Positions 18,852 to 34,509 of a stretch of 64,000 nucleotides of DNA are shown here, in pieces. The stretch is taken from the NCBI GenBank assembly GCA_037440025.1, contig JBBIUX010000006.1, forward strand, positions 11,296 through 75,295. The letters are read 5' to 3'. This stretch comes from Candidatus Fraserbacteria bacterium (GTDB taxonomy: Bacteria; Bipolaricaulota; Bipolaricaulia; RBG-16-55-9; DRXL01). The notes under the pieces were generated by a model. That model worked only from the letters and a program-made list of their open reading frames with translations, was not told where the DNA came from and made no database searches. Positions within the stretch are counted from its first letter, which is position 1, and every line of letters begins with the position of its first letter. A program made the position numbers and the translations under genes.

Positions 18852-18920
18852 GAATCACGGAAGGCACGGAATCGCCACGGAGAGCACAGAAGAATGGTTC
18901 TCTCTGTGCCCTCCGTGATG
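18852..18920. repeat. CACGGAAG-type long hairpin repeat (family C)
   Basis: GAATCACGGAAGGCACGGAATCGCCACGG...CTGTGCCCTCCGTGATG imperfect inverted repeat; same family at 23487, 24298, 25286, 25923, 31209, 31616, 32321, 33231. Confidence 0.75.
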
Positions 18921-21100: not shown

Positions 21101-21138
21101 GAACAAGAGATAACTATACAAAGAGGGGGGCAGACTCT

Positions 21139-23355
21139 ATGCGAGTGATAATTGTTGTTGGGGTGTTGCTAGTGGTCGGAATAGTTGCTGAGGCACAGAC
21201 GCTACGAGTGACCGTGCCGGTGGATCTTGTCAATTGTGTATCGGGAGTGCCGCTGGTCGCGGGCCCGGACGCGGGGAGCGCTGTGGGTCCCGGCGGCGCT
21301 TGCGTTGTCGCTTCGGGCACTTACCCTGTAGCAGTTACCATTACCGTGCCCGGATTGATTCTGATTTCCACAAACGGCGCCATGGCCACGACGATCGCTG
21401 GCCCAGTCACTATAACTGCTGCGGCCAACGGTGTCACCCTTGGTCGAGCAGGCCAAGGATTTATGATCACCGGGGGCCTGACCGTAGGCGCTAATCAGAA
21501 CATTACTGTTGAGGACAGCATCTTCACAGGAAGTGGAGGGCCGGGAGTGTTGGTCGGTGCTCCAGGGGCTGTCCGTAATCTACGTTTTTTGAATCTTCAA
21601 GTACGCGCTAACGGAGGCGGGGGGATCATCTTCACGGGAGGATCTGTCGACGATCTGCTCATCACCGGGAGCGTGATCGAGACCAACGGAGGCCCGGGTA
21701 TAGGTTTCGCTATTGGCGGAAGCGTTCGCAGCTTCAACCTCTCTAGCAACCGCATCATTGGCAATGCGATCGGAGGGATCATCTTCGTTGGCCCCACCAA
21801 CGATGTTGAAGATAGCGAATTTTCTAATCTTATTGTACAAGGCAATGCCGGTCCGGGATTGGCTCTTGCTAACACCGGGCGCGTCATGGGGGTGGTGGTC
21901 TCTGGCAGTAACATCTCCAGTAACACCGGCGACAACGTCGTCTTTGGGAACGGCTTGACCTCAGATGTGGTGTTCGAGAACAACACTATAGAAAACGCCG
22001 CCGCCAACGGCGTAAACTTTTCCAATACTGGTGCGGTGGAAGACTTTGTCTTCCGGAACAACACCATCCAACGCAACGGCTTTAACGGCGTCTTGTTCTT
22101 CAACACCGGCAGGGTAGATAGCATTCAGATCCTTGACAACCGTCTGCGCAATAACGGTTTCCATAATCTTTTTATTAATCATCTGGGGCCTCGTGATTTC
22201 TCGGTCGGGCGGTTGACGATGGAGGGCGGCTTCGTCGACCAAGCGGGCGACAACGGCATCCGTATTGTGACTCTGACCACCGACATTGTCTTCATCACCT
22301 TGACCAATGTTCAAATCAGCAAGAACGGGGGGATAGGGGTCTGCTTACGCACAAACGGGGGAGCTATCGCTGACATCAAGTTTGAAGGAGCAGTTATCAA
22401 AGAAAACCAAGGGGGAGCAGGCTTAACTCCCTGTGATACAGCAGCTGCGCCGATCGGCTCTGGAGCGGAATTGATCACGCTGACGGGGAACATCGGTCCG
22501 GCAGAAGTTACTGGAAGCACCTTTGCCAATAATGGCGGCTTCGGCCTGCGCTTGCAATCGTTGGGGGCCGGTGGCGCGATGGGCGACGTGGGGCCGGTGG
22601 CTGTGCGAAACAGCGCATTCGATCAGAACGGCACGCGGGCCCCGGCGGGCTTGGGCTCTGGGTTCACCGCTCGAGGCCGAGGCGTCCGCGACATCTCCAT
22701 CAACCCCACCACAGCTAATAATAACAACGATCACGGCGTAGATATTCAAGCGACCAGTGATATTAGCAATGTCTCCATTACTGGAGGCGAGTTCTCCAAT
22801 AATGACCGCAACGTAGACACGATTGGCGCGGGGATCAACATCAGCGCCACGCAACGCCTGAGCGGTGTGAAAGTGACAGGAGCCAAGCTGATGTCGAATT
22901 CCCAGGGGGCGCGTGTTCAGGCCGACCGAGCTTCGGATAATCACATCAACCAGTGCGAGATCTCTGGCAATAGACAAGCTGGAGTTGAGGCCTCGATCAC
23001 GTCGGGAGACGATGTGGATGCAACGAACAACTACTGGGGCAGCCCTTCCGGCCCCAGCGGGACCAACGGCGCTGTGGGGCAGGTCACGGCCAGTCCGTTC
23101 TTGAGCGCCCCGCCGGGCGGTCCCACGCCGCCTACACCACCGACGCCACCCACACCGCCAACTCCACCGACCCCGCCGACGCCACCGGCGGGAGGCTTTG
23201 CCGCCTGCGCCGCAGGCGCAGATAACAGAATTGACGATCTAGAAATGCTGGGCATTCTCGATGCATGGATCAAGGGGCAGAGCTATCAAGCCTGCGGGGT
23301 GCCCACGGATTTGGACGTCTTGCAGGCGTTGGATCGCTGGGCGCGGGGAGTGTAG
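21139..23355 (+). CDS. Secreted parallel beta-helix protein, paralogue of the 13282 gene, with (PTPPT)n linker and C-terminal dockerin-like module
   Basis: Long stretches collinear with the 13282 product (NNNDHG..EFSNNDRNVDTIG.GI.IS, NYWGSPSGP); PTPPTPPTPPTPPTPPTPP; ATG at 21139 with GAGGGGGG SD. Confidence 0.7.
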   Translation: MRVIIVVGVLLVVGIVAEAQTLRVTVPVDLVNCVSGVPLVAGPDAGSAVGPGGACVVASGTYPVAVTITVPGLILISTNGAMATTIAGPVTITAAANGVTLGRAGQGFMITGGLTVGANQNITVEDSIFTGSGGPGVLVGAPGAVRNLRFLNLQVRANGGGGIIFTGGSVDDLLITGSVIETNGGPGIGFAIGGSVRSFNLSSNRIIGNAIGGIIFVGPTNDVEDSEFSNLIVQGNAGPGLALANTGRVMGVVVSGSNISSNTGDNVVFGNGLTSDVVFENNTIENAAANGVNFSNTGAVEDFVFRNNTIQRNGFNGVLFFNTGRVDSIQILDNRLRNNGFHNLFINHLGPRDFSVGRLTMEGGFVDQAGDNGIRIVTLTTDIVFITLTNVQISKNGGIGVCLRTNGGAIADIKFEGAVIKENQGGAGLTPCDTAAAPIGSGAELITLTGNIGPAEVTGSTFANNGGFGLRLQSLGAGGAMGDVGPVAVRNSAFDQNGTRAPAGLGSGFTARGRGVRDISINPTTANNNNDHGVDIQATSDISNVSITGGEFSNNDRNVDTIGAGINISATQRLSGVKVTGAKLMSNSQGARVQADRASDNHINQCEISGNRQAGVEASITSGDDVDATNNYWGSPSGPSGTNGAVGQVTASPFLSAPPGGPTPPTPPTPPTPPTPPTPPTPPAGGFAACAAGADNRIDDLEMLGILDAWIKGQSYQACGVPTDLDVLQALDRWARGV

Positions 23356-23486: not shown

Positions 23487-23573
23487 GAATCACGGAAGGC
23501 GCGGAATCGCCACGGAGAGCACGGAAGATTTTTTCTGTGTCTTCCGTGGCCCGTTCGGTGTCCTCCGTGATTC
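23487..23573. repeat. Family C CACGGAAG hairpin repeat, copy with promoter tail
   Basis: ~135 bp near-identical to 31209-31338. Confidence 0.8.
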
Positions 23574-23578
23574 AAAGT

Positions 23579-23607
23579 TTGACCTGCAGAAGTGCCCAGG
23601 CTATACT
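23579..23607 (+). promoter_or_regulatory. Near-consensus sigma70 promoter TTGACC-17-TATACT embedded in the repeat tail
   Basis: TTGACC 23579-84, TATACT 23602-07, 17-nt spacer; ATG of next ORF at 23634. Confidence 0.6.
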
Positions 23608-23633
23608 GAAAGGGCTGAGGCGAGGTGTGAGCT

Positions 23634-23954
23634 ATGTCTGTCACGAAGTCGCAGCCAAAGCCCCAGGACGTAGAGAAATGGGGCGTCTATGCCAAGGCAA
23701 GTCGGCTCTTCGCGGAAAGGGTCAAAAACCTCCCCGGCGTCCGAGCCGTAGCAGCCAAATATTGCGGGGATTACGTGGATTTGTGGGTCTTCACCGACGA
23801 AGTCCACCAGAGCGAGTTGATCCACCCTGTGGGAGCGGCCCTCAAACAGCTCGGAGAGCAATTTCCTGAACTCCTCTTTGACTCGTTCGTAACACGTCAA
23901 GGGATCCCAGACGGCTTTGTAGCCTTCTTCCATGCCAACGCCCCAGGAGCATGA
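23634..23954 (+). CDS. Hypothetical protein, possibly nucleotidyltransferase-like
   Basis: 106 aa; GDYVDLWVF resembles a degenerate NT-fold motif; 23-nt overlap with next ORF. Confidence 0.3.
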   Translation: MSVTKSQPKPQDVEKWGVYAKASRLFAERVKNLPGVRAVAAKYCGDYVDLWVFTDEVHQSELIHPVGAALKQLGEQFPELLFDSFVTRQGIPDGFVAFFHANAPGA

Positions 23955-24285
23955 GGGGAAATCGCGCGCTATTGAGCGCCTCTTCTCCGTATTCAATGAC
24001 AATGAACCGGATCATTGGGATTGGCTGGCTATCGTAGCCTTCTACGCTGCGCTTCACTGGGTGGACGCTGCCCTGGCACACCAAGGGCTCCATCCGAGCA
24101 ACCATCGAGAGCGGAACCGGATGGCGCAAGGCTTGCCGATCTGGAACGAATATTACGAGCTCTACGCGGTAAGCCGGATTGCGCGCTACGAAGCAGGGCA
24201 TGTGTCCCAACAGATTGCCATACGCATGCGCGATCAGAATTTGCCCGCTGTACGTATCTGGGCTCAACAGACCAAGCAACCATAG
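23932..24285 (+). CDS. Hypothetical protein, possibly HEPN-like (R-x4-H in RYEAGH)
   Basis: 117 aa, helical, Rx4H motif; coupled to upstream ORF. Confidence 0.3.
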   Translation: MPTPQEHEGKSRAIERLFSVFNDNEPDHWDWLAIVAFYAALHWVDAALAHQGLHPSNHRERNRMAQGLPIWNEYYELYAVSRIARYEAGHVSQQIAIRMRDQNLPAVRIWAQQTKQP

Positions 24286-24486: not shown

Positions 24487-24759
24487 GTGCGCATTCGCAA
24501 GCTCCTGTGGAGCCAAGCTATCATCGAGAAATTGCACACAAAGCATCGAGTCTCGCCCAGCGAGGTCAAGGCCGTCTGTGCTGGCGCACATATAACATGG
24601 GCCGGACGACGTGGCACGTATTATCTGCTGGGACAGACCAAGAGCGGACGCTATCTCTTCGTCGTTGTGGCCCATAAAGGCTCCGGGGTGTTCAAAGTCA
24701 TCACTGCCCGAGATATGACCGAAGCCGAACGCCAACGCTTCTCGAGGAGGAGACCATGA
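24487..24759 (+). CDS. brnT: BrnT-family (DUF497) ribonuclease toxin
   Basis: 90 aa, GTG start; ...ETKH.V...EVE.VF...RYLTAFF/ RYLFVVVAHKG pattern of BrnT; overlaps antitoxin start. Confidence 0.65.
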   Translation: MRIRKLLWSQAIIEKLHTKHRVSPSEVKAVCAGAHITWAGRRGTYYLLGQTKSGRYLFVVVAHKGSGVFKVITARDMTEAERQRFSRRRP

Positions 24760-25103
24760 AACTCCCGAAATTTCGCTCCGAACAAGAAGAAGCAGCCTTC
24801 TGGGAGACCCACGACCTCAGCGATTATCTGGACGAGCTTGAGGAGATACAATTCGAGTGGGCTCCGGACGAAGACACCTGCCCCAGCTGCGGCGCGGCCA
24901 TGAAGCCTGAACAGTTCGAAGTCGAACTGCTGGAGGGGCTCTACCTGCGGAATCTGCGGCGATATCGCTGCCCGGTGTGCCAGACGGTCCAACTCACGCC
25001 GGAGTCGTTGGTGCACATCAACCAGACAGACAGCTTGATTAGGCGATTCGGATTAGCAGGGCTTCTGTTGCAAAAGGAGTTAGTAAGCGAGTTCAGAACC
25101 TAG
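24756..25103 (+). CDS. brnA: BrnA-like antitoxin with C-terminal zinc ribbon
   Basis: EEAAFWETHDLSDYLDE BrnA-type motif; CPSCG...CPVC. Confidence 0.6.
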   Translation: MKLPKFRSEQEEAAFWETHDLSDYLDELEEIQFEWAPDEDTCPSCGAAMKPEQFEVELLEGLYLRNLRRYRCPVCQTVQLTPESLVHINQTDSLIRRFGLAGLLLQKELVSEFRT

Positions 25104-25126
25104 CGCAAGCAAAAGCTGGCATCGAA

Positions 25127-25349
25127 GCGCCCCTGGGGGGAGACCCCCGGGGGCGGTGGTTTTTAACCTAACCCCCAAGCCCCCTTCCCAGCGAAGAGTC
25201 AAGAGTCTAGGAGTCGAGGGTCGAGAGACTCCAGACCCCCAGACTCTGGACCTTTCTGTAAGGGAGGGGCTAGGGGAGAGGTCTTGAACCACGGCAAGCA
25301 CGGAACCTGCCACGGGGAATACGGAAGACGGCGGGTCTTTTTCCGTGCC
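25127..25349. repeat. Composite intergenic repeat block: terminator-like GC hairpin+T-tract (family D), GAGTC/GACTC-rich repeat (family E), truncated family C hairpin
   Basis: GCGCCCCTGGGGGGAGACCCCCGGGGGCGGTGGTTTTTAACC; AGAGTCTAGGAGTCGAGGGTCGAGAGACTCCAGACCCCCAGACTCTGGACC; GAACCACGGCAAGCACGGAA... Confidence 0.75.
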
Positions 25350-25367
25350 TTAACGACACAGACGACT

Positions 25368-25478
25368 TTATAAATGCGGTGTCCGCCGCTCCGCCAGGTA
25401 GTCGCGGATCAGAGGAAGCACCGTAAATCCCAAAGCTGTTAGCCCAATGACCAGGAGAATAATGTACAGCGGTAACAT
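25368..25478 (-). CDS. Tiny single-TM peptide (36 aa, MLPLYIILLVIGLTALGFTVLPLIRDYLAERRTPHL), second gene of the small-membrane-peptide cassette
   Basis: Not in ORF track (<60 aa); ATG 2 nt after stop of upstream gene; paralogue of 31509-31616 product. Confidence 0.5.
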   Translation of the reverse strand: MLPLYIILLVIGLTALGFTVLPLIRDYLAERRTPHL

Positions 25479-25480
25479 AC

Positions 25481-25702
25481 TCACCCCCTCGCGATCTTCC
25501 TTAACCGTAAATAGCCGAAAATATAGATCAGCAACCAGATAATTGATCCCAGGACCGAGACCCCCAAGTGAAATCCTTCCGGGTTAAGAAACTGACCGAA
25601 GACCAGCGCGCCAATGGCAATATTCGCCACATCAAACAGCTTCTCGATAACAACGCGCTCTGCTTCGTGCTCTCCCGATAGAGGCTTTTCCTTTTTACTC
25701 AT
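25481..25702 (-). CDS. Small two-TM membrane protein (73 aa), paralogue of 31339-31509 product
   Basis: LFDVANIAIGALVFGQF...LGSIIWLLIYIFGY aligns with LMDVANYAAGALLIGQI...LGGAIWLCFYAIEE. Confidence 0.55.
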   Translation of the reverse strand: MSKKEKPLSGEHEAERVVIEKLFDVANIAIGALVFGQFLNPEGFHLGVSVLGSIIWLLIYIFGYLRLRKIARG

Positions 25703-25789
25703 GCTATTAGCAGTATAGAAGCCCCGTCCGGTTTTGTCAATGGTGGGAGCGCAGGGCGAGTGTTTTCCCCCTCACCCCTTGCTCCCCTC

Positions 25790-26013
25790 TCCCTTCGCGG
25801 TGGTTTTTGACCTAACCCCCCAGCCACCTTCCCAGCGAAGAGTCTAGGAGTCGAGGGTCGAGAGACTCCAGACCCCCAGACTCTGGACCTTTCTGTAAGG
25901 GAGGGGCTAGGGGAGAGGTCTGCATCACGGAAGGCGCGGAATCGCCACGGGGGACACGGAAACGGCAGGTGTTTTCAGTGCCTTCCGTGGCTCTTTCTGT
26001 GGGCTCCGTGGTT
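25790..26013. repeat. Composite repeat block: partial family D, family E (GAGTC-rich), family C hairpin
   Basis: Near-duplicate of the 25127-25349 block in the opposite arrangement around the small membrane gene. Confidence 0.75.
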
Positions 26014-26105
26014 CGAGCTTGCACCGCAAAGCCCCAGGAGGGAGGGAGAGGGGACAGCTTGAACGAAACCGCCGCATAGGGTAGGATGGCTAATCGGAGA
26101 GCACG

Positions 26106-26342
26106 ATGAGCACTGCCATAATGTCGAAACAAACAGAGAAAGCCAAGCAGTTCTATCGCCGGTTGGAGCCCCGCTTGCTCCCTGAGCATCGTGGGCAGAT
26201 CGTAGCCATCGAAATCGAGTCCGGGACTTATTTCCTCGGGGATGACGAGCTGGAGGTCGCCCGCCGTGCCCAAGCCCAATTCCCTGACAAACTCTTTTAT
26301 TTCTTCCGCGTCGGGGAACGCGCCGTCCACAAACTGCGCTAA
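26106..26342 (+). CDS. Small DUF5678-like protein (partner of retropepsin-like protease)
   Basis: 78 aa; stop immediately precedes start of protease gene (TAATG). Confidence 0.4.
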   Translation: MSTAIMSKQTEKAKQFYRRLEPRLLPEHRGQIVAIEIESGTYFLGDDELEVARRAQAQFPDKLFYFFRVGERAVHKLR

Positions 26343-26713
26343 TGCTTCGCGGACGGGTCAATGAGTACGGCGAGCCGCTGGTGGTGATCACCTTGGACTT
26401 GGGCCATAAACGCCAACGGCAGACTGCCATCATTGATACTGGTTTTAACGGTTACCTGAGCGTGCCCAAGCCCGTGATTCAGCAATCTGATTGGCAGTGG
26501 CTTGGCTTTGAGGACTATGAGCTGGCCTCCGGAGCCGTTGTCCGAGAGCAAGTCTACCGGGGAAGAATCATCTTCGATCAGAAACGACTGGAGGTCTACG
26601 TGGTGGCCACTGATTCCGCAGATATTTTGATCGGCACACGATTATTGCAAAGCAAGCGGCTGTTGATCGACTTTAGCAGCGACGCAGTTCACATCAAGGA
26701 CAGTCGCGACTAA
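26342..26713 (+). CDS. Retropepsin-like (clan AA) aspartic peptidase
   Basis: AIIDTGFNGYLSVP = DTG active-site motif in a ~120-aa single-lobe protease. Confidence 0.6.
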   Translation: MLRGRVNEYGEPLVVITLDLGHKRQRQTAIIDTGFNGYLSVPKPVIQQSDWQWLGFEDYELASGAVVREQVYRGRIIFDQKRLEVYVVATDSADILIGTRLLQSKRLLIDFSSDAVHIKDSRD

Positions 26714-26727
26714 GAAGGACAGCCTCG

Positions 26728-26830
26728 AGCGCCCCTGGGGGAGCGATCCCCGGGGGCGGTGGTTTTTGACCTAACCCCCGACTACTACAAAGGTGGGGAG
26801 GGGCTAGGGGAGAGGTCTCGCCGCGTGCAA
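26728..26830. repeat. Family D terminator-like hairpin + GGGGCTAGGGGAGAGGTC tail
   Basis: GAGCGCCCCTGGGGGAGCGATCCCCGGGGGCGGTGGTTTTTGACCTAACCCCC... Confidence 0.7.
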
Positions 26831-26881
26831 ACGGCTTGCACGGCTGTGGCTGGCGGAGTAGGATAACAAGGGTGATCGCGC

Positions 26882-27445
26882 ATGGCCACCAAAGCCCAGA
26901 TCAAATTCACCTACGAAGACTACAAGAGCCTGCCTTACTCAGAGCGCGAGCGCTTTGAGCTCCTGGAAGGAGAGCTGATCCCTATGCCGCCGTCCCCAGG
27001 ATTCGCCCATCAATCGGTCTCGTTGGAGCTGGTTACCCGACTCCATCTCTTTGTGCAGGAGAGAACATTAGGGACGGTCCTTGAGGCCCCCTTTGACGTA
27101 GTGCTGGGAGAGCCCGGGGAAGAGCAGGTCGTGCAGCCGGACATTCTCTTCGTCTCCAAGGAGCGACGCCGTATCATCCAGGAAGACGAAATTCGCGGAG
27201 CGCCTGACCTCGTCGTCGAAATTCTCTCCCCTTCTACGAAAGAGAAGGATCGCACCTACAAGCGCCGTCTCTATGCCAAGTATGGCGTCCGGGAATACTG
27301 GATCGCCGATCCCGACAGTCAGACCATCGAGGTACTCACGCTGGGCAAGCGGGGCTATGAACGGGCCGGGCTCTATCACAAAAACGAGATATTGGAGTCG
27401 CCGCTCTTGTCGGGTCTGCGAATTCCCCTGAGCGAAGTCTTATAG
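26882..27445 (+). CDS. Uma2-family (DUF820) restriction-endonuclease-fold protein, paralogue 1
   Basis: MATKAQIKFTYEDYKSLPY...QPDILFVS...GAPDLVVEILSPST (PD-(D/E)xK-like core). Confidence 0.75.
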   Translation: MATKAQIKFTYEDYKSLPYSERERFELLEGELIPMPPSPGFAHQSVSLELVTRLHLFVQERTLGTVLEAPFDVVLGEPGEEQVVQPDILFVSKERRRIIQEDEIRGAPDLVVEILSPSTKEKDRTYKRRLYAKYGVREYWIADPDSQTIEVLTLGKRGYERAGLYHKNEILESPLLSGLRIPLSEVL

Positions 27446-27455
27446 GACGGAGTCT

Positions 27456-28952
27456 TTGCTCTTTCCAACACGAAGACGGGTTTTGCTATTCGCTGCCATA
27501 GCTCTGTTGGGAGCAGCTTTGGGATTTGGCGGTCTCTTAGAAAGCTGCCAGCCCCCCAATAAAGCGCCGTTAGCGCGCTTCAGCTTTAGCCCCAAAGAGC
27601 CCAAAATCGGGGAGACCGTCACGTTTGACGGCTCGGCTTCGCGAGATCCCGACGGCAAGATTGTCAGCTATCTGTGGGATTTTGGCGACGGAGCGACCGC
27701 TCAGAACGTGACGACAACGCATGCGTTTCAGGAAGACGGCGAGTACGATGTCATTCTGCAGGTAATGGATGACCGCGGCACGAGCTCTAATGTGGAGAAA
27801 ACAGTGCGCGTTGCTCCGCTCAACGAACTGCCTACAGCAAGCTTCACCGTCGCCCCCAGCGAGCCGAAGACAAACCAATCTGTCACTTTTGACGCTTCAG
27901 CATCGGTTGATCCAGACGGCACGATCACAGCTTATACGTGGGAGTTCGGCGATCAAACGACAGGGCAAAACAAGATCGCCACGCACGTCTATAAGACGGC
28001 GGGCACGTACACCGTGAAGCTCACGGTGACGGACAACAAGGGCGCGAAATCTTCGGCCACTAAAGGAATTACTGTTATAGAGGCTCCGCCCAACGAGCCG
28101 CCGTTTGCGAAACTTGACTTCACCCCCGCGACCGCGACGGTCAATGAGCCCGTGAACTTCGACGCTTCCGAATCGCGCGACGACGGCCAGATTGTCAAAT
28201 ATCAATGGGATTTTGGCGACGGTGCCAGCGGTGAGGGTCAGCAGGTCTCGCACACATATAAAACGGCTGGGACGTTTATCGTCAAGCTGACGGTGACAGA
28301 CGATCTCGGTGCAACTGGTTCGACCACGCGCAGCGTGATCGTTCGCGAGTCTGCTGTCATAGAGTCGTTCGCCGTGCCAGGGGAGGAGCCCAGCGGGCTC
28401 GCCTGGGACGGGGAGAACTTCTGGCTGGCTGATATAGACAGCGAGAAGATCTATAAGCTCGATAAAGCCGGGAAGATTCTAAGCTCGTTCGCTGCCCCAG
28501 GGAGCACGCCGACCGGGCTGGCCTGGGATGGGGAGAACTTGTGGGTTGCCGATAGCCTGGATGCACGGATTTATAAAGTCAATCCCCAGAATGGAAAAGT
28601 CACCGGCGCTTTTGATCTCCCCAACTCCGATCCCCAAGGGCTCGCCTGGGATGGCGAGAATCTCTGGGTGATGGACGCCGACACGGGGAAGCTCGAAAAG
28701 CTCGACTCCAACGGGGATGTGCTCGAATCGTTTGACTCCCCCGGCGACTCCCCGGCAGGCCTTACCTGGGACGGCAAAAATCTATGGATGAGTGACAGCG
28801 ATGCCGGGTTAATCAAAATTGACCCAGCGACGGGCAAACAGATCAGCACCGTCAAAGCCCCCGGTCCCGACCCGCGCGGCCTGGCTTGGGATGGGACGTA
28901 TCTGTGGGTCGTGGATGGTGAGGACCTCAAAGTCTATCGGGTGGCGCCATGA
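27456..28952 (+). CDS. Lipoprotein with three PKD domains and a beta-propeller of ~6 'GLAWDGENLWV' blades
   Basis: VTFDGSASRDPDGKIVSYLWDFGDG x3; periodic P.GLAWDG.NLWV.D x6; TTG start, LLESC lipobox-like. Confidence 0.6.
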   Translation: MLFPTRRRVLLFAAIALLGAALGFGGLLESCQPPNKAPLARFSFSPKEPKIGETVTFDGSASRDPDGKIVSYLWDFGDGATAQNVTTTHAFQEDGEYDVILQVMDDRGTSSNVEKTVRVAPLNELPTASFTVAPSEPKTNQSVTFDASASVDPDGTITAYTWEFGDQTTGQNKIATHVYKTAGTYTVKLTVTDNKGAKSSATKGITVIEAPPNEPPFAKLDFTPATATVNEPVNFDASESRDDGQIVKYQWDFGDGASGEGQQVSHTYKTAGTFIVKLTVTDDLGATGSTTRSVIVRESAVIESFAVPGEEPSGLAWDGENFWLADIDSEKIYKLDKAGKILSSFAAPGSTPTGLAWDGENLWVADSLDARIYKVNPQNGKVTGAFDLPNSDPQGLAWDGENLWVMDADTGKLEKLDSNGDVLESFDSPGDSPAGLTWDGKNLWMSDSDAGLIKIDPATGKQISTVKAPGPDPRGLAWDGTYLWVVDGEDLKVYRVAP

Positions 28953-31147
28953 AGTTTTTCAGTCTTTTGGGGATCGGGCTGTTGGCGCTTTCTGTCGGTG
29001 CTGGTGCCCAGACGGGACCGCCGCCAGCCAAATTTGCTTATGACCAACTCGAAAGCCGGCTCGTTGAAGTCGCCCAACGCACCGGAGACAGAACAGCTTG
29101 GGCGCTGCAACACGGGATTCGCTTGGAATCGGGTACCGTGAGCGTCATTCTTGAAAGCGATCAGGTCCGTGAGCAGTCTCTTACGGCGCTCGGCGCTCAG
29201 ATTGAGGCCCGATCTTCCCGTCTGGTGCGCGTGCGCGTGCCCGCTGAAAAGCTCTTTGAACTGGCAGAGAGTTTGCCCCAGAGCGCCTATGTGCGGCTCC
29301 CGCTGCGTCCCTGGGGTGCAACAATCGAAGGTCTCCAGGTGACCGGTGCGAGCGGGTTTCACGCCCAAGGTGTTCGTGGCCAGGGGGTGCGCGTGGCCGT
29401 GATAGATATCGGGTTTTCGGGGCTCTCCGCGGCCATCGCTGCGGGCCGGATTGCTCACGTCGTCTTTCACAAAGACTACACGGGGCTGGGGATGGAAGGT
29501 GGCGACGAACCCCATGGAACAGATGTGACAGAGATTCTCTCCGCCATGGCCCCGGAGGCCGAGTTCTTACTCTATCGAATCACAGATGAAGTTGATTTAG
29601 AGAACGCCGTGGAAGACGCGCTGCAGCGCGGTGTCGAGATTATCAATCACTCGGTCGGCTGGGTGAACACCGATTTTGGCGACGGGACGGGACTGATCGC
29701 ACAGATCGCGCAAAACGCCGTTCGTCGTGGGGCCGTCTGGGTCAACGCTGCCGGAAACGCCGCGCAACGGCATTGGGCAGGGCTATGGCAAGATTTTGAC
29801 AGAGATGGTTGGCTCAATGTCGAAGACGAACGCGAGCGGCTCGCGCTCGAAGTCGAGGCCGGCGACACTATAGAGATCTTTCTGACGTGGGACGAATGGC
29901 CTCGGGCGCGTACGGACTATGATCTCTATCTGTTCTACGATCTTAATGGCGATGGGCAGCTCGATGCCGAAATGGAGATAGTCGCCTCTTCGGTCAATCG
30001 CCAAAGCGGCAGACAGCCCCCAACAGAGAGCATCGAATATCTCGCTCCCCTGCCCGGGCACTATGCTATTGCCGTTGGAGGCCCACCGGAGGCAGCGGGG
30101 AGCGCATTGGAGATTTTCAGCTTTAATCACGACCTGACACCGGCGGTTGCCGCGGGGAGTCTGTTGGCTCCGGCGCAGGCTCCCGACGTGATCGCCGTGG
30201 GTGCTGTAGATTACCAAGAGTATACCCAGGGCACGATCGAGCCTTTTAGCTCCCAAGGGCCGACCAGTGATGGCCGAATGAAACCCGATCTGGCGGCCCC
30301 CGACGGCGTGCTGGTCTCTACAGGGCGCTTCTTTGGGACCTCGGCGTCAGCCCCATTTGTTGCTGGTGCCGCAGCGCTTCTGCTCTCTCTTGAGCCTAAC
30401 TTAAGCCCGGCTCAACTGCGCGTGCGCCTGCTCGCGCAGACTGCTGACGTTGGTCCTGTTGGGGCGGACAACGTTTTTGGCGCGGGCAAGCTGCTATTGC
30501 GCTTTAATACGCAACCGTCGGTTCCCGAACCTGCCGTTTCACAGCTTGATGTAGAGGCGAAGACCAGTGAATTGAAGTGCAAGGAGGGCAAGACAAAGAC
30601 CCTGAGATTCAAAGCGGAAAACACCAGCGATGATGACATTGAAATTGACGAAACCCTCATCGCTACGAATGCCTATTTCGAGCGTGATAGGGACAAGGCA
30701 GCCGGCAAGGTCGTGAAGGCAGACAAGAAGAAGACTCTGTCTGTCAAGGTGGAGTGTCTGCAGACAGAGACCCTCAGCAAGAGCGAATACGAGCAGTATG
30801 TGAGCTTCAGGACCGACGAAGGCGGAGGCCGGATTGCTTATGCTTATCCATCGGGCGTTGGCTCGGTGGTCGCTACGGCTTTGAGTGTCAATGGCGTGCG
30901 GCTCTCCAAGAGCAGAGCGATCTTCGACGTGCAGGGTGCCCCCTTGGCCCAGGTGCAGGTCTTCAGCCTGAGCGGCAAGATGGTCTACGATAGCGGCATG
31001 GTCGCGAGCAGCTCACTCTCCTGGAACCTGCTCAATGAGTCCGGGCAGCGCGTGCCCAATGGCGTCTATCTCTATGTCGTGACGATGCAGGCGCCCGATG
31101 GCCGGTTGGTCAAGAGCAAGATCCAGAAGCTAGTCGTGTTGAGATAG
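28949..31147 (+). CDS. Subtilisin-like S8 serine peptidase with T9SS type-A C-terminal sorting domain
   Basis: D (VAVIDIG), H (HGTDV), S (GTSASAPFVAGAAALL) catalytic motifs; C-terminus VQVFSLSGKMV...NGVYLYVVTMQAPDGRLVKSKIQKLVVLR. Confidence 0.8.
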   Translation: MKFFSLLGIGLLALSVGAGAQTGPPPAKFAYDQLESRLVEVAQRTGDRTAWALQHGIRLESGTVSVILESDQVREQSLTALGAQIEARSSRLVRVRVPAEKLFELAESLPQSAYVRLPLRPWGATIEGLQVTGASGFHAQGVRGQGVRVAVIDIGFSGLSAAIAAGRIAHVVFHKDYTGLGMEGGDEPHGTDVTEILSAMAPEAEFLLYRITDEVDLENAVEDALQRGVEIINHSVGWVNTDFGDGTGLIAQIAQNAVRRGAVWVNAAGNAAQRHWAGLWQDFDRDGWLNVEDERERLALEVEAGDTIEIFLTWDEWPRARTDYDLYLFYDLNGDGQLDAEMEIVASSVNRQSGRQPPTESIEYLAPLPGHYAIAVGGPPEAAGSALEIFSFNHDLTPAVAAGSLLAPAQAPDVIAVGAVDYQEYTQGTIEPFSSQGPTSDGRMKPDLAAPDGVLVSTGRFFGTSASAPFVAGAAALLLSLEPNLSPAQLRVRLLAQTADVGPVGADNVFGAGKLLLRFNTQPSVPEPAVSQLDVEAKTSELKCKEGKTKTLRFKAENTSDDDIEIDETLIATNAYFERDRDKAAGKVVKADKKKTLSVKVECLQTETLSKSEYEQYVSFRTDEGGGRIAYAYPSGVGSVVATALSVNGVRLSKSRAIFDVQGAPLAQVQVFSLSGKMVYDSGMVASSSLSWNLLNESGQRVPNGVYLYVVTMQAPDGRLVKSKIQKLVVLR

Positions 31148-31170
31148 TCGTATAAAAGAACGGAATCGGA

Positions 31171-31295
31171 GCGCCCTTGGGGGGAGACCCCCGGGGGCGT
31201 TGGTTTTTGAATCACGGAAGGCGCGGAATCGCACGGAAAGCACGGAAGGTTTTTTTCTGTGTCTTCTGTGGCCTGTTCGGTGTCCTCCGTGATTC
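31171..31295. repeat. Family D terminator-like hairpin + family C hairpin (second copy of the promoter-bearing unit)
   Basis: GCGCCCTTGGGGGGAGACCCCCGGGGGCGTTGGTTTTTGAATCACGGAAGG... Confidence 0.8.
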
Positions 31296-31300
31296 AAAGT

Positions 31301-31329
31301 TTGACCTGCAGAAGTGCCCAGGCTATACT
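31301..31329 (+). promoter_or_regulatory. TTGACC-17-TATACT promoter (identical to 23579-23607); near-leaderless start
   Basis: ATG at 31339 lies only 9 nt after the -10 hexamer. Confidence 0.6.
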
Positions 31330-31338
31330 GAAAGGGCA

Positions 31339-31509
31339 ATGAACCCGAAACAGCGAGAAGTCTTGGCAGAGAAACTGATGGACGTCGCCAACTATGCAGC
31401 CGGTGCATTGCTGATCGGCCAGATCATTAGCAAAGAGTTCATCATGGCTTGGACGCTCCTGGGCGGAGCGATTTGGTTATGCTTCTACGCGATTGAGGAG
31501 GTGCAGTAA
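31339..31509 (+). CDS. Small two-TM membrane protein (56 aa), cassette gene 1
   Basis: MNPKQREVLAEKLMDVANYAAGALLIGQIISKEFIMAWTLLGGAIWLCFYAIEEVQ; paralogue of the 25481-25702(-) product. Confidence 0.55.
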   Translation: MNPKQREVLAEKLMDVANYAAGALLIGQIISKEFIMAWTLLGGAIWLCFYAIEEVQ

Positions 31510-31616
31510 TGGATACAGTTTTGTTGCTGTTGCTCATCATCCTCGTGGGGGGACTAGCCTTCACGCTGCCCACGATCATTGGGGACTGGCGGCGGGCGCG
31601 CTCCGGGCATAAGTAG
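31509..31616 (+). CDS. Tiny single-TM peptide (35 aa), cassette gene 2
   Basis: MDTVLLLLLIILVGGLAFTLPTIIGDWRRARSGHK; start overlaps upstream stop (TAATG); paralogue of 25368-25478(-). Confidence 0.5.
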   Translation: MDTVLLLLLIILVGGLAFTLPTIIGDWRRARSGHK

Positions 31617-31701
31617 AATCACGGAAGGCGCGGAATCGCCACGGAGAGCACGGAAGTTTTTTCTGTGCCTTCCGTGGTTCTTTCTGTGGACTCCGTGATT
31701 C
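31616..31701. repeat. Family C hairpin repeat
   Basis: GAATCACGGAAGGCGCGGAATCGCCACGGAGAGCACGGAAG-TTTTTTCTGTGCCTTCCGTGG... Confidence 0.8.
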
Positions 31702-31707
31702 CAACGC

Positions 31708-31751
31708 TTGTACAGTGAGGGGGAATGGAGTACCATAACAAGGTGATCTCT
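31708..31751 (+). promoter_or_regulatory. Conserved Uma2 leader: TTGTAC-17-TACCAT promoter-like element + AAGGTGA SD
   Basis: Identical leader at 33303-33346; related TAGGATAAC-AAGGTGATC leaders at 26858 and 33918. Confidence 0.45.
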
Positions 31752-32312
31752 ATGGCCACCAAAGCCCAGATCAAGTTTACTTACGAAGATTACAAAAGCC
31801 TGCCCTACGTGGAGCGCGAGCGCTTTGAGCTCCTGGAAGGAGAGTTGATTATGGCCCCGTCGCCCAATACAGAGCATCAAGAAATTGCTCGTGAACTCTT
31901 CCGCCCTCTGGGGGAGCATATCCGTAGCCATAACCTAGGGAAGATCTATTTTGCTCCTTTAGATGTCGTGCTAGGGGAACCCGGCAACGAACAGGTCGTC
32001 CAACCTGATATTCTCTTTGTCTCTCAAGCCCGTCGCACGATTATCCGCGATGATGAGATCCGCGGAGCCCCAGACTTAGTCGTGGAGATCATCTCGCTCT
32101 CGACGGAAGAGAAGGACCGGGTTTTCAAGCGCCGCCTCTATGCCAAGTATGGCGTCCAGGAATACTGGATCACCGATCCCGACAGTCAGACCATCGAGGT
32201 ACTCACGCTGGGCAAGCGGGGCTACGAGCGGGCGGGACTGTATACGAAGAGCGAGACGCTGAAATCGCCGCTCTTGCCGGGCTTGCACATCCCCCTTGAT
32301 GAGATCTTCTAG
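31752..32312 (+). CDS. Uma2-family endonuclease-fold protein, paralogue 2
   Basis: Same N- and C-terminal sequences as paralogue 1 (~95% nt identity in 3' third), divergent middle. Confidence 0.75.
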   Translation: MATKAQIKFTYEDYKSLPYVERERFELLEGELIMAPSPNTEHQEIARELFRPLGEHIRSHNLGKIYFAPLDVVLGEPGNEQVVQPDILFVSQARRTIIRDDEIRGAPDLVVEIISLSTEEKDRVFKRRLYAKYGVQEYWITDPDSQTIEVLTLGKRGYERAGLYTKSETLKSPLLPGLHIPLDEIF

Positions 32313-32459: not shown

Positions 32460-33088
<629 letters not shown>

Positions 33089-33110
33089 GAGAACCCAACC
33101 CAACGGAATA

Positions 33111-33295
33111 GGCCGCCCTTGGGGGGAGACCCCCGGGGGCGTTTGTTTTTGGGGGCCCTCACCCTGGCCCCTCACCCCTCTGGCTCCCCTCTCCCTCGGA
33201 GGGGAGAGGGGACGGGGGTGAGGGCCTGTGCATCACGGAACGCACGGAAGACTTTCTCTGTGCCTCCCGTGGCTTTTTCAGTGCGTTCTGTGATT
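33111..33295. repeat. Composite repeat block: family D hairpin, family B palindrome, family C hairpin
   Basis: GGCCGCCCTTGGGGGGAGACCCCCGGGGGCGTTTGTTTTTGGGGGCCCTCACCC...GGGGGTGAGGGCCTGTGCATCACGGAACGCACGGAAG... Confidence 0.75.
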
Positions 33296-33346
33296 CCAAC
33301 GCTTGTACAGTGAGGGGGAATGGAGTACCATAACAAGGTGATCTCT

Positions 33347-33940
33347 ATGGCCATCAAAGCCCAGATCAAATTCACCTACGAAGATTACAAGAGCCTGCCC
33401 GAATCTGAGACCGAGCGCTATGAGCTTGTAGAGGGGGAGTTGGTGATGGTTCCTTCACCAGATACAGAACATCAAGATATTGTCGGTAACCTCTTTCGGT
33501 TGCTCAGTGACCACGTCCATAAGCACCGGTTGGGCAAGGTCTACCTCGCTCCCCTGGACGTCGTGCTGGGGGAGCGAGATGAGGAGGAGGTTGTCCAACC
33601 GGATATTCTGTACGTCTCCTACCAGCGTCGGGGTATCATCGCCCGCGAGGAGATCCGTGGTGCTCCAGACCTGATCGTCGAGGTGCTCTCCCCCTCCACA
33701 GCTCAACGTGACCGCACCTTGAAAAAGAAGTTGTACGCACGTCACGGGGTGCAGGAGTATTGGATTGTCGACCCGAAAGCACAAACGCTCGAGGTCTATG
33801 AGTGGCGACCGAAGGGCTTCGAGCGTGTTGGGCTCTATGGTGCTGAGCAAACGCTTACTTCTCGTCTCTTGCCAACCTTACACATTCCCCTGAGAGAAAT
33901 TTTCAATGACCGAGACGGACAAGGTAGGATAACAAGGTGA
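33347..33940 (+). CDS. Uma2-family endonuclease-fold protein, paralogue 3 (3' end reads through the conserved leader of paralogue 4)
   Basis: MAIKAQIKFTYEDYKSLPE...; C-terminus ...DRDGQGRITR encoded by the GGTAGGATAACAAGGTGA leader. Confidence 0.7.
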   Translation: MAIKAQIKFTYEDYKSLPESETERYELVEGELVMVPSPDTEHQDIVGNLFRLLSDHVHKHRLGKVYLAPLDVVLGERDEEEVVQPDILYVSYQRRGIIAREEIRGAPDLIVEVLSPSTAQRDRTLKKKLYARHGVQEYWIVDPKAQTLEVYEWRPKGFERVGLYGAEQTLTSRLLPTLHIPLREIFNDRDGQGRITR

Positions 33941-33945
33941 TCTCT

Positions 33946-34509
33946 ATGGCCACCAAAGCCCAGATTAAATTTACTTACGAAGACTACAAGAGCCTGCCCT
34001 ACGTGGAGCGCCAACGCTTCGAGCTACTCGAAGGAGAATTGATCCCTATGACGCCATCACCCGGTGAGGCCCATCAGGCCACTTCCATAGCCCTGTCGTC
34101 CTTGCTGTACCGATTTGTTCGGGAGCATCAGGTGGGCCGCGTCTACGAAGCCCCATTTGATGTCGTCTTAGGAGAACCAGGAGAGGAGCAGGTCGTCCAG
34201 CCCGATATTCTCTTTGTCTCTCAAGTCCGTCGCACGATTATCCGCGATGATGAGATCCGCGGAGCCCCAGACTTAGTCGTGGAGATCCTCTCACCCTCGA
34301 CCGAAGAGAAGGACCGGGTTTTCAAGCGCCGCCTCTATGCTAAGTATGGGGTAACAGAGTATTGGATTGTGGACCCCGACGCTCGAACTATAGAGGTGCT
34401 GGCGCTGGGCAAGCGGGGCTACGAGCGGGCTAGGCTCTATAAAAAAAGTGAGACGCTGGAATCGCCGCTCTTGCCGGGGTTACACATCGCACTCAATGAA
34501 GTCTTTTGA
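33946..34509 (+). CDS. Uma2-family endonuclease-fold protein, paralogue 4
   Basis: MATKAQIKFTYEDYKSLPYVERQRFELLEGELIPM...; stop overlaps recG start region. Confidence 0.75.
   Translation: MATKAQIKFTYEDYKSLPYVERQRFELLEGELIPMTPSPGEAHQATSIALSSLLYRFVREHQVGRVYEAPFDVVLGEPGEEQVVQPDILFVSQVRRTIIRDDEIRGAPDLVVEILSPSTEEKDRVFKRRLYAKYGVTEYWIVDPDARTIEVLALGKRGYERARLYKKSETLESPLLPGLHIALNEVF

What the first reader, a model, noticed from the sequence alone, without database searches (positions are those of the whole stretch)
25368..31616. Duplicated two-gene cassette encoding a 56-73-aa two-helix membrane protein plus a 35-36-aa single-helix peptide
The 25481-25702(-) and 31339-31509(+) ORFs encode paralogous small two-TM proteins with a conserved core (DVAN.A.GAL..GQ... 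/ LG..IWL..Y). Each is followed by a translationally coupled tiny ORF absent from the ORF track. These are 25368-25478(-) MLPLYIILLVIGLTALGFTVLPLIRDYLAERRTPHL and 31509-31616(+) MDTVLLLLLIILVGGLAFTLPTIIGDWRRARSGHK, with stop/start spacing of TGAgtATG and TAATG. The tiny peptides are also paralogous: a leucine-rich helix, an FT.LP.I motif, and a basic tail with a conserved His. Both copies sit between mobile repeat blocks, and one is driven by the portable TTGACC-17-TATACT promoter. Functional guesses: a membrane-active two-peptide toxin (holin-like), an addiction module, or an accessory subunit pair. I cannot assign either protein to a known family.
Basis: partly seen in the sequence, partly recalled or inferred. 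Interest (0 to 1): 0.7.

Follow-up and report, generated by a model that had tools for sequence, protein, structure and literature searches.

The report
Conserved pair of tiny membrane-protein genes
The window holds two copies of a small two-gene operon, one gene for a two-helix membrane protein and one for a one-helix membrane peptide. The same gene pair occurs in many uncultured bacterial phyla, is under purifying selection, and has no known function.

Summary
A1 (25481-25702, -) and A2 (31339-31509, +) are paralogues (49% identity, E 3e-12). Each is followed at TGAgtATG or TAATG by a 36- or 35-aa ORF (B1, B2).

The B ORFs are real genes. Their dN/dS is 0.02-0.19, against about 1 or more in the shifted frames, and a Shine-Dalgarno-like sequence lies inside the 3' end of A.

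The pair is not private to this genome. A belongs to a family of about 1,150 clusters at 50% identity, found in Bipolaricaulota, Fraserbacteria, Acidobacteriota, Omnitrophota, many Patescibacteria and others. In 78 of 86 loci, A is followed within -25 to +45 nt by a one-helix peptide with a basic tail. The control rate is 2.7%.

A is a confidently predicted helical hairpin and is distantly related to Pfam DUF6722, a family of unknown function. B matches no family.

No neighbouring gene is conserved, and no copy was found in the phage or plasmid collections. Cassettes are multi-copy, carry their own near-consensus promoter 9 nt before the start codon, and sit between hairpin repeats in a toxin-antitoxin-rich island.

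Best guess, at about 0.4 and untested: a self-contained poison-antidote membrane module. A harmless small membrane complex is nearly as likely.

The parts
25712..25740 (-). Promoter of cassette 1: TTGACA, 17 nt, TATACT. The -10 hexamer ends 9 nt before the A1 ATG, so the mRNA is leaderless or nearly so.
   Evidence: The promoter scan gives 11 of 12 matches and it is the only hit in the region. The upstream sequence is shown. TATACT lies 7-9 nt before the ATG in most Bipolaricaulota paralogues.
25481..25702 (-). A1: 73-aa two-helix membrane protein, predicted N-in/C-in, with core motif EKLFDVANIAIGALVFGQF.
   Evidence: Orthologues are 81-93% identical. dN/dS is 0.01-0.06.
25368..25478 (-). B1: 36-aa single-pass peptide, MLPLYIILLVIGLTALGFTVLPLIRDYLAERRTPHL, 2 nt after the A1 stop. 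The sequence GGGGGTGA just upstream is Shine-Dalgarno-like.
   Evidence: Orthologues are 92% identical and were called by gene callers. dN/dS is 0.02-0.10, with 0 second-position changes.
25280..25367 (-). Hairpin repeat built from CACGGAA/TTCCGTG units, downstream of B1. Probably a transcript end or stabiliser.
   Evidence: Folds at -30.6 kcal/mol, z -3.0. Repeat census.
25153..25284 (.). Left copy of the roughly 130-nt direct repeat that brackets cassette 1.
   Evidence: Repeat families D13 (84 nt, 100% identical) and D14 (51 nt, 92%).
25797..25921 (.). Right copy of the roughly 130-nt direct repeat that brackets cassette 1.
   Evidence: families D13 and D14.
31251..31337 (+). Promoter-bearing repeat of cassette 2. 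TTGACC-17-TATACT lies at 31301-31329, with the -10 hexamer ending 9 nt before the A2 ATG. The repeat is 98% identical to 23529-23615, which precedes an unrelated gene pair.
   Evidence: and family D12.
31339..31509 (+). A2: 56-aa two-helix membrane protein and paralogue of A1. Its 3' end is about 20-30 nt shorter than in its orthologues.
   Evidence: AlphaFold2 gives pLDDT 90.9 with helices at residues 3-30 and 36-55. DNA alignment with L018 and L019.
31509..31616 (+). B2: 35-aa single-pass peptide, MDTVLLLLLIILVGGLAFTLPTIIGDWRRARSGHK. It overlaps the A2 stop (TAATG), and GAGGAGGTG lies 7 nt upstream of its ATG.
   Evidence: Orthologues in L018, L019, L031 and L032. dN/dS is 0.06-0.19.
31614..31705 (+). 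Long palindromic repeat that starts at the B2 stop codon.
   Evidence: Folds at -52.4 kcal/mol, z -8.7, and 0 of 200 shuffles fold as well. Repeat families D4, D7, D8 and D10.

Best explanation
Each cassette is an independent, bicistronic and probably leaderless operon encoding two integral-membrane microproteins that act together.

Shown or strongly supported:
- A is a helical hairpin with its basic N-terminus in the cytoplasm. Its first helix carries conserved polar and small residues (D-x-x-N...G/A-A-L-x-x-G-Q).
- B is a single-pass peptide with a short acidic or neutral N-terminus outside and a basic tail inside. It is translated by coupling to A.
- The two genes duplicate, diverge and move as one unit.

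Inferred:
- A oligomerises, because a natural tandem A-A protein exists, and forms a small pore or ion path.
- B docks on A, through helix packing and through contact between its basic tail and the acidic start of A's first helix, and restrains it.

My committed reading is that the pair is a self-contained poison-antidote membrane module. It would resemble a holin-antiholin pair or a toxin-antitoxin system, but with both partners in the membrane. It would persist as a selfish cassette, shuffled between intergenic repeats. I slightly favour A as the effector and B as the neutraliser, because A is far more conserved than B. The opposite polarity is not excluded.
For: That the genes are real and coupled:
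- dN/dS is 0.02-0.19 in frame, against about 1 or above 5 in the shifted frames.
- Shine-Dalgarno-like sequences lie inside the 3' end of A.
- B starts within -25 to +5 nt of the A stop in 50 of 70 distinct cassettes, most often at -1 or -4.

That the pair is conserved:
- 78 of 86 A loci carry a B-like ORF, against 2.7% in controls.
- All 13 genome loci from at least 6 phyla have one.
- Pairwise identities of A and of B across cassettes correlate at r 0.72, while the largest value in permutations is 0.09.

Topology:
- The A N-terminus carries 3.3 K+R (net +1.5), and the loop is neutral.
- The B tail is net +2.85 and is positive in 94% of cases. The B N-terminus is never positive.
- AlphaFold2 predicts a hairpin with pLDDT 90.9.

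Selfish-module traits:
- At least 7 paralogous cassette types occur in close relatives, up to three within 2 kb. L031, L032, L044, L084 and L100 each carry two or three.
- The 123 flanking genes hit 113 different Pfam families, so no partner gene is conserved.
- Cassette content around A1-B1 differs between strain-level contigs.
- Each cassette has its own near-consensus promoter.
- In the window the cassettes sit among BrnT/BrnA, DUF433/DUF5615 and Uma2 genes.
- Decayed copies are common.
- A tandem A-A protein, P0132, exists.
Against: - There is no homology to any known toxin, holin or defence protein in Pfam, NCBIfam, PHROGs or PADLOC.
- No copy was found in 2.9 million viral contigs, in GenBank phages or in PLSDB plasmids, although those collections hardly cover these uncultured lineages.
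- Neither protein has a DNA-binding part, so the autoregulation typical of type II toxin-antitoxin systems is absent. No antisense promoter or known RNA was found either.
- The pair is kept in small-genome Patescibacteria. In one clade it lies in conserved synteny next to mraZ, which looks more like a housekeeping gene.
- Copies exist with A broken and B intact (L018, L086, L075). One copy has A without B (L057). The ratio of about 7 to 1 is not significant once gene length is taken into account.
- Toxicity, neutralisation and physical interaction were not and could not be tested here.
Confidence: 0.38

Rival explanations
1. A and B form a harmless small membrane-protein complex with a physiological role, such as membrane or ion homeostasis, or modulation of a conserved membrane machine encoded elsewhere. 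They would then resemble the small regulators of kinases, transporters and respiratory complexes.
For: The A core is strongly conserved across phyla, and N18, G27, Q28 and G42 are nearly invariant in 141 representatives. Purifying selection is strong. The pair is present in small-genome Patescibacteria, and in one clade it lies in conserved synteny between a 164-aa anchored protein and mraZ. It is absent from the phage and plasmid collections searched. The constitutive-looking promoter has no obvious regulator. Small membrane proteins commonly act as regulators of larger membrane proteins (review PMC12648545).
Against: Many paralogous copies per genome and local arrays of cassettes. No conserved neighbouring gene. 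Patchy distribution over distant phyla. Frequent decay of copies. Cassette shuffling between strains.
Confidence: 0.35
2. The polarity is the reverse of my favoured reading. B is a Hok- or TisB-like pore-forming peptide toxin, and A, made first from the same mRNA, is its membrane-embedded antitoxin.
For: B has the size and layout of type I toxins, one helix plus a charged tail. An antitoxin-first gene order with coupling is the commonest type II arrangement (established knowledge). B1 gives a weak Hok/Gef match, E 0.012.
Against: Copies with A broken and B intact exist (L018; L005, L008 and L009; L075; L086). That should be lethal unless paralogous A proteins cross-protect. B is the poorly conserved partner, with no invariant residue beyond Met1, whereas toxins are usually the better conserved partner. 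The Hok match is below threshold and is seen in only 1 of 46 B peptides.
Confidence: 0.12
3. B is a leaderless bacteriocin-like peptide, and A is its two-helix immunity protein.
For: Small peptide and small membrane-protein pairs that occur in arrays are typical of bacteriocin loci (established knowledge). The cassettes are multi-copy.
Against: B is an uninterrupted stretch of about 20 hydrophobic residues with an intracellular-type basic tail. It is not an amphipathic, cationic, secreted peptide. No exporter, leader or modification gene is among the neighbours. No bacteriocin family is hit.
Confidence: 0.04
4. The cassette is a remnant of a phage lysis cassette: a class II holin or pinholin plus a small partner.
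For: A has the size and predicted N-in/C-in two-helix topology of class II holins.
Against: No endolysin or other phage genes are nearby. No relative was found in IMG/VR or GenBank phages. No PHROG or holin Pfam family is hit.
Confidence: 0.03

Closest known systems
Pfam DUF6722 (PF20482), a family of unknown function
   Same: Small two-helix proteins. 15 of 53 and 8 of 141 A-family members match it, with a best E of 7.8e-9. The match covers helix 1, the loop and the start of helix 2.
   Different: Both window proteins score below the gathering threshold: A2 scores 17.6 against 27 bits, and A1 gives no hit. DUF6722 has no known function and no paper mentions it. Whether true DUF6722 genes have a B partner was not tested.
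Type I toxin-antitoxin membrane toxins (Hok/Gef, TisB, Fst, Ibs and others)
   Same: B is a 24-47-aa single-helix peptide with a charged tail. The cassettes are multi-copy and lie in variable contexts.
   Different: In those systems the antitoxin is an antisense RNA. Here there is a conserved, co-translated protein partner and no detectable antisense promoter or RNA. There is no significant sequence match.
Type II toxin-antitoxin operons, including toxin-first ones such as higBA, hicAB and brnTA
   Same: Two small genes with overlapping or abutting stop and start codons. They are self-contained, multi-copy, lie in toxin-antitoxin islands, and often decay.
   Different: Both products are integral membrane proteins. 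There is no DNA-binding antitoxin domain, and no nuclease-, kinase- or gyrase-type toxin fold.
Class II holins or pinholins with antiholins
   Same: A two-helix, N-in/C-in protein of about 60-70 aa with polar residues in the membrane, plus a small membrane partner.
   Different: There is no phage context, no endolysin, and no match to any holin family.
Accessory microproteins of membrane complexes (KdpF, CydX, AcrZ, MgtS)
   Same: B has the same size class and single-pass topology.
   Different: Those are encoded with, or act on, a defined large complex. Here no neighbouring gene is conserved and no family is hit.

Membership tests
Pfam DUF6722 (PF20482) | Score at or above the curated gathering threshold (27 bits) | tested here: not met
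   A2 scores 17.6 bits (E 0.0047) and A1 gives no hit. At the family level, 8 of 141 representatives match with a best E of 7.8e-9, and 15 of 53 match weakly. Distant homology is therefore likely, but the window proteins are not members by Pfam's rule.
Type I TA toxin (Hok/Gef and similar) | Small hydrophobic single-helix peptide | tested here: met
   B1 and B2 each have one hydrophobic stretch of about 20 aa and a charged tail.
Type I TA toxin (Hok/Gef and similar) | Antisense or nearby small RNA antitoxin | tested here: inconclusive
   No second promoter appears in either cassette and no Rfam family matches. A novel RNA cannot be excluded from sequence alone.
Type I TA toxin (Hok/Gef and similar) | Sequence membership of a known toxin family | tested here: not met
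   HOK_GEF gives E 0.012, below threshold, in 1 of 46 B peptides. No other toxin family is hit.
Type II toxin-antitoxin operon | Bicistronic operon with coupled translation | tested here: met
   Junctions are TGAgtATG and TAATG. 50 of 70 cassettes have a gap of -25 to +5 nt.
Type II toxin-antitoxin operon | Antitoxin with a DNA-binding domain that autoregulates, plus a soluble enzymatic toxin | tested here: not met
   Both products are membrane helices only, with no domain hit.
Type II toxin-antitoxin operon | One partner is toxic and the other neutralises it | not testable with these tools
   This needs expression experiments.
Class II holin / pinholin | Two transmembrane helices, N-in/C-in, about 60-100 aa | tested here: met
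   AlphaFold2 hairpin and charge distribution. These are predictions only.
Class II holin / pinholin | Encoded in a phage or prophage lysis cassette next to an endolysin | tested here: not met
   No relative in IMG/VR or GenBank phages. No lysin among the neighbours. No PHROG hit.
Accessory subunit peptides (KdpF, CydX-type) | Encoded in the operon of the partner complex, with a family match | tested here: not met
   The 123 flanking genes hit 113 different Pfam families. No KdpF or CydX match among 46 B peptides.
PADLOC anti-phage defence proteins | Match to a model of a known or candidate defence system | tested here: not met
   0 hits for all four proteins at E up to 10.

The most novel reading that the evidence does not exclude
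The A-B pair founds a new class of toxin-antitoxin or addiction module in which both the poison and the antidote are integral-membrane microproteins made from one coupled, leaderless mRNA. The class would be spread over at least six phyla of mostly uncultured bacteria, including the small-genome Patescibacteria, and has been largely missed because the second gene is only 24-47 codons long.
Probability: 0.3. Interest if true: 0.8.

Novelty: new variant of a known kind. Interest (0 to 1): 0.55.

Why it matters
The family has more than 1,000 sequence clusters, and its conserved partner gene is so short that some annotations skip it. It went uncalled in, for example, the candidate-phyla locus L014.

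If the pair proves to be a protein-protein poison-antidote system that works entirely inside the membrane, it would add a new architecture to toxin-antitoxin biology. It would also give a handle on membrane physiology in lineages that cannot be cultured.

If it is instead a harmless membrane complex, it is still one of the few microprotein pairs conserved from Acidobacteriota to Patescibacteria. It would give the DUF6722-like proteins their first defined partner.

Tried and rejected
- Family scans of all four proteins against Pfam, NCBIfam, PHROGs and PADLOC found nothing above threshold.
- A Pfam scan of 46 B peptides gave only scattered, insignificant single-helix matches to 37 families.
- A profile search of PDB sequences gave a best E of 0.26. 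Foldseek of the A2 model against PDB gave a best E of 1.9. A bare helical hairpin is not discriminating. The AFDB library was not available.
- AlphaFold2 of the natural A-B fusion P0150 without an alignment gave three helices at pLDDT 69.8 and pTM 0.42. That is too weak to read helix packing.
- Searches of IMG/VR, GenBank phages and PLSDB plasmids found no relative.
- Rfam found only spurious sub-threshold hairpin matches on the repeats.
- A literature search for DUF6722 returned 0 papers. Searches for small-membrane-protein pairs or membrane antitoxins found no description of this pair.
- I considered using the excess of broken A genes over broken B genes (about 7 to 1) to assign the toxin role. 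I rejected it as decisive because A is twice as long, the binomial p is about 0.17, and some frameshifts may be assembly errors.
- I considered the in-frame A-B fusions (P0150, L100) as evidence of interaction. In a fusion, however, B's helix would be forced into the opposite orientation to the one its charges predict, so these may be read-through artefacts or pseudogenes.
- P0062 is labelled Caldarchaeum, but it closely resembles the Bipolaricaulota A-IV paralogue. I take it as a likely binning error, not as evidence for archaea.
Full report
**1. What is in the window**

On the minus strand, a 73-aa ORF (A1, 25481-25702) is followed 2 nt after its TGA by a 36-aa ORF (B1, 25368-25478). On the plus strand, a 56-aa ORF (A2, 31339-31509) overlaps a 35-aa ORF (B2, 31509-31616) by one base, at TAATG.

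A1 and A2 are clear paralogues: 22 of 45 residues are identical, E 3e-12. B1 and B2 alone are not significantly similar (E 0.11). A profile scan of all six frames finds no further copy in the 64 kb.

**2. The tiny ORFs are genes**

Orthologous cassettes were recovered from related metagenomic and MAG contigs (L001-L010, L018, L019).

| Comparison | dN/dS | Note |
|---|---|---|
| B1 orthologues | 0.02-0.10 | 0 changes at second codon positions; 9-19 at third positions |
| B2 orthologues | 0.06-0.19 | |
| Same B1 alignments read in the two shifted frames | about 1, or above 5 | control |
| A1 orthologues | 0.01-0.06 | |

Purine-rich Shine-Dalgarno-like sequences lie inside the 3' end of A, 5-8 nt before the B start: GGGGGTGA before B1 and GAGGAGGTG before B2. 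Gene callers had already called both B proteins on the source contig and on related contigs, always as hypothetical proteins.

**3. The pair is a widespread, unannotated module**

Close relatives of this organism carry at least seven paralogous A types, and each has its own B type.

A profile of these sequences found 325 proteins in the 5.8-billion-protein set. A full HMMER scan of the 1.84 billion cluster representatives found 1,158 at E <= 1e-3 and 351 at E <= 1e-10. Nearly all are 56-75 aa long.

Named sources are Candidatus Acetothermia/Bipolaricaulota, Fraserbacteria, Vicinamibacterales and other Acidobacteriota, Omnitrophota, Gottesman-, Davies- and Saccharimonadales-type Patescibacteria, a Deltaproteobacteria MAG, and two MAGs labelled Gammaproteobacteria.

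In all 13 genome loci, a 26-37-aa ORF encoding one hydrophobic helix plus a basic tail starts between -13 and +19 nt of the A stop. In a wider survey (L018-L105):

| Set | Followed by a B-like ORF |
|---|---|
| A hits with at least 150 nt downstream | 78 of 86 (91%) |
| Control: ends of other open frames in the same loci | 58 of 2136 (2.7%) |

Of 70 distinct cassettes, 50 have a gap of -25 to +5 nt, most often -1 or -4. This is the signature of translational coupling. Most of the eight exceptions are A genes broken by a stop or frameshift, or in-frame A-B fusions.

Pairwise identities among A proteins and among their B partners correlate at r 0.72, while the largest value in 1,000 permutations is 0.09. 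The cassette therefore duplicates and diverges as one unit.

**4. Anatomy of the proteins**

AlphaFold2, run with a 53-sequence alignment, predicts A2 as a helical hairpin with helices at residues 3-30 and 36-55 and a mean pLDDT of 90.9.

Across 62 pairs:
- The segment before helix 1 of A carries 3.3 K+R on average (net +1.5).
- The loop of A is neutral.
- The N-terminus of B is never positive.
- The tail of B is net +2.85 and is positive in 94% of cases.

By the positive-inside rule (established knowledge), A is N-in/C-in and B is N-out/C-in.

Helix 1 of A carries the family signature E-K-L-x-D-x-[AG]-N-x-x-x-[GA]-A-L-x-x-G-Q. N18, G27, Q28 and G42 are nearly invariant in 141 representatives. 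This amounts to a polar stripe plus a small-x-x-x-small packing motif.

B has no invariant residue beyond Met1. Its subfamilies are well conserved, for example ...LPTIIxDWRRARxGHK in Bipolaricaulota, Omnitrophota and the Deltaproteobacteria MAG...LDWLGRRKDRxSRNRAA and ...AVRADRKAHHxK in Acidobacteriota, and M[ED]xLAWFLL...GGLxVKKYSK in Patescibacteria.

A natural tandem A-A protein (P0132) suggests that A works as a dimer or higher oligomer.

**5. Expression signals and surroundings**

Each window cassette has one near-consensus sigma-70-type promoter. A1 has TTGACA-17-TATACT and A2 has TTGACC-17-TATACT. In both, the -10 hexamer ends exactly 9 nt before the ATG.

TATACT lies 7-9 nt before the start codon in 10 of 11 Bipolaricaulota and Fraserbacteria cassettes examined. 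With transcription normally starting about 7 nt after the -10 hexamer (established knowledge), these mRNAs would be leaderless or nearly so. This is an inference.

The A2 promoter is part of an 87-nt repeat that is 98% identical to one at 23529-23615. There it precedes an unrelated gene pair.

Both cassettes end in hairpin repeats built from CACGGAA/TTCCGTG units. The one after B2 folds at -52.4 kcal/mol, z -8.7. These repeats lie in at least 10 intergenic sites between 18.8 and 39 kb, so they belong to the island as a whole and are not specific to this cassette. Cassette 1 is additionally bracketed by a direct repeat of about 130 nt.

Neighbours in the window are BrnT/BrnA, DUF433/DUF5615, four Uma2 genes and two unassigned small gene pairs.

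Outside this lineage there is no conserved neighbour. The 123 flanking proteins hit 113 different Pfam families, the commonest in only 5 proteins. The one exception is a Patescibacteria clade in which a conserved 163-168-aa anchored protein precedes A and mraZ follows B.

**6. Comparison with what is known**

- No Pfam, NCBIfam, PHROG or PADLOC model reaches threshold for any of the four proteins.
- A is a distant relative of Pfam DUF6722. 15 of 53 members match weakly, and 8 of 141 match at E <= 0.01 with a best E of 7.8e-9. The window proteins stay below the gathering score. That family has no known function and no paper mentions it.
- B peptides hit 37 unrelated single-helix families, none significantly. 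There is no KdpF or CydX match, and Hok/Gef appears once at E 0.012.
- PDB sequence and fold searches were uninformative.
- No relative was found in IMG/VR, GenBank phages or PLSDB plasmids.
- A recent review of bacterial small membrane proteins lists regulators of kinases, respiratory complexes and photosystems, and type I toxins whose antitoxins are RNAs. My term search of that review and my literature searches found no described pair like this one.

**7. How it most likely works**

Firmly supported: this is a self-contained operon producing, in coupled fashion, a hairpin protein and a single-pass peptide. The two co-evolve and almost certainly act together in the cytoplasmic membrane.

Beyond that I commit, at about 0.38, to a poison-antidote module whose two partners both sit in the membrane. 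The reasons are:
- many paralogous copies, often in local arrays;
- cassette shuffling between strains;
- a patchy distribution across phyla;
- no partner genes;
- each cassette has its own strong promoter;
- residence in a toxin-antitoxin-rich island;
- frequent decay of copies.

I lean towards A as the effector, because it is the conserved, polar-lined and oligomerising partner, and B as its fast-evolving restrainer. The reverse polarity is kept as a separate rival at 0.12.

The main rival, at 0.35, is a harmless small membrane complex with a physiological role. It is favoured by the deep conservation of the A core, by retention in small-genome Patescibacteria with local synteny, by the absence from the mobile-element collections searched, and by the lack of any regulatory element.

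Bacteriocin-plus-immunity and phage lysis readings are unlikely (section 6).

**8. Decay of copies**

- A2 in this window lacks about 20-30 nt at its 3' end relative to L018 and L019.
- The L018 orthologue has an in-frame TAG.
- L005, L008 and L009 carry truncated A genes with B intact.
- L075 and L086 have frameshifted A genes with B intact.
- L057 has A without B.
- L033, L065 and L076 have lost both genes.

The excess of broken A genes is suggestive but not significant.

**9. Verdict**

Novelty: an undescribed, conserved gene pair whose larger member is a distant DUF6722 relative.

Interest is moderate to good at 0.55. It would be high if the all-membrane poison-antidote reading is confirmed by experiment.

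Noticed in passing
window 18856-39011 (clusters at 18856, 23491, 24302, 25299, 25926, 31213, 31620, 32325, 33234, 38964): A family of intergenic palindromic repeats built from CACGGAA/TTCCGTG heptamers separates most small gene cassettes of this island. There are 32 heptamers against about 8 expected. The copy at 31614-31705 folds at -52.4 kcal/mol (z -8.7). They look like REP- or MITE-like elements that may end transcripts and promote cassette shuffling.
   Followed up: partly
window 23529-23615 and 31251-31337: An 87-nt repeat, 98% identical between the two copies, carries the promoter TTGACC-17-TATACT. One copy drives A2-B2. The other precedes an overlapping pair of unassigned genes (106 aa at 23634-23954 and 117 aa at 23932-24285, no Pfam hit), which is a candidate novel toxin-antitoxin-like pair.
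   Followed up: partly
window 25119-25176, 26722-26779, 31163-31220, 33105-33162: A repeated GC-rich hairpin followed by a T run (GCGCCCCTGGGGGGAGACCCCCGGGGGCG GTGGTTTTT). It looks like an intrinsic terminator and recurs after several genes.
   Followed up: partly
window 24487-25103, 26106-26713, 26882-27445, 31725-32312, 32469-33088, 33320-34509: A dense island of toxin-antitoxin-type and related small genes: BrnT plus a CopG/BrnA antitoxin, DUF433 plus DUF5615, four Uma2 paralogues, and a 78-aa plus 123-aa coupled pair with no Pfam hit.
   Followed up: partly
L030, L073, L082, L085, L102 (Patescibacteria-type loci): A conserved 163-168-aa protein with an N-terminal membrane anchor lies 4-11 nt upstream of A on the same strand. 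The copies are 50-76% identical to each other and have no Pfam hit. In L030, L073 and L085, mraZ follows B. This may be a lineage-specific three-gene unit next to the cell-division cluster.
   Followed up: partly
L024 3263-3385, L027 419-532, L028 3303-3407: In three loci a second B-like single-helix ORF follows the first. The tail of the one in L027 (TPTIYHDWKKSRHKH) resembles the tail of the window's B2.
   Followed up: no
P0132; P0150; L100 2893-3261: Natural fusions occur: a tandem A-A protein of 145 aa and two in-frame A-B fusions. The A-B fusions would invert the predicted orientation of B, so they may be pseudogenes or read-through artefacts.
   Followed up: partly
window 21088-23355: A 755-aa beta-helix-type protein carries a (PTP)n repeat near its C-terminus. 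Related contigs carry large NosD/beta-helix proteins next to the cassettes.
   Followed up: no
L002-L009 (one metagenome, JGI 3300059600): Strain-level contigs share the A1-B1 cassette but differ in which other cassettes lie beside it: further A-B pairs, DUF433/DUF5615, or small unknown pairs. This points to a hotspot of cassette gain and loss.
   Followed up: partly
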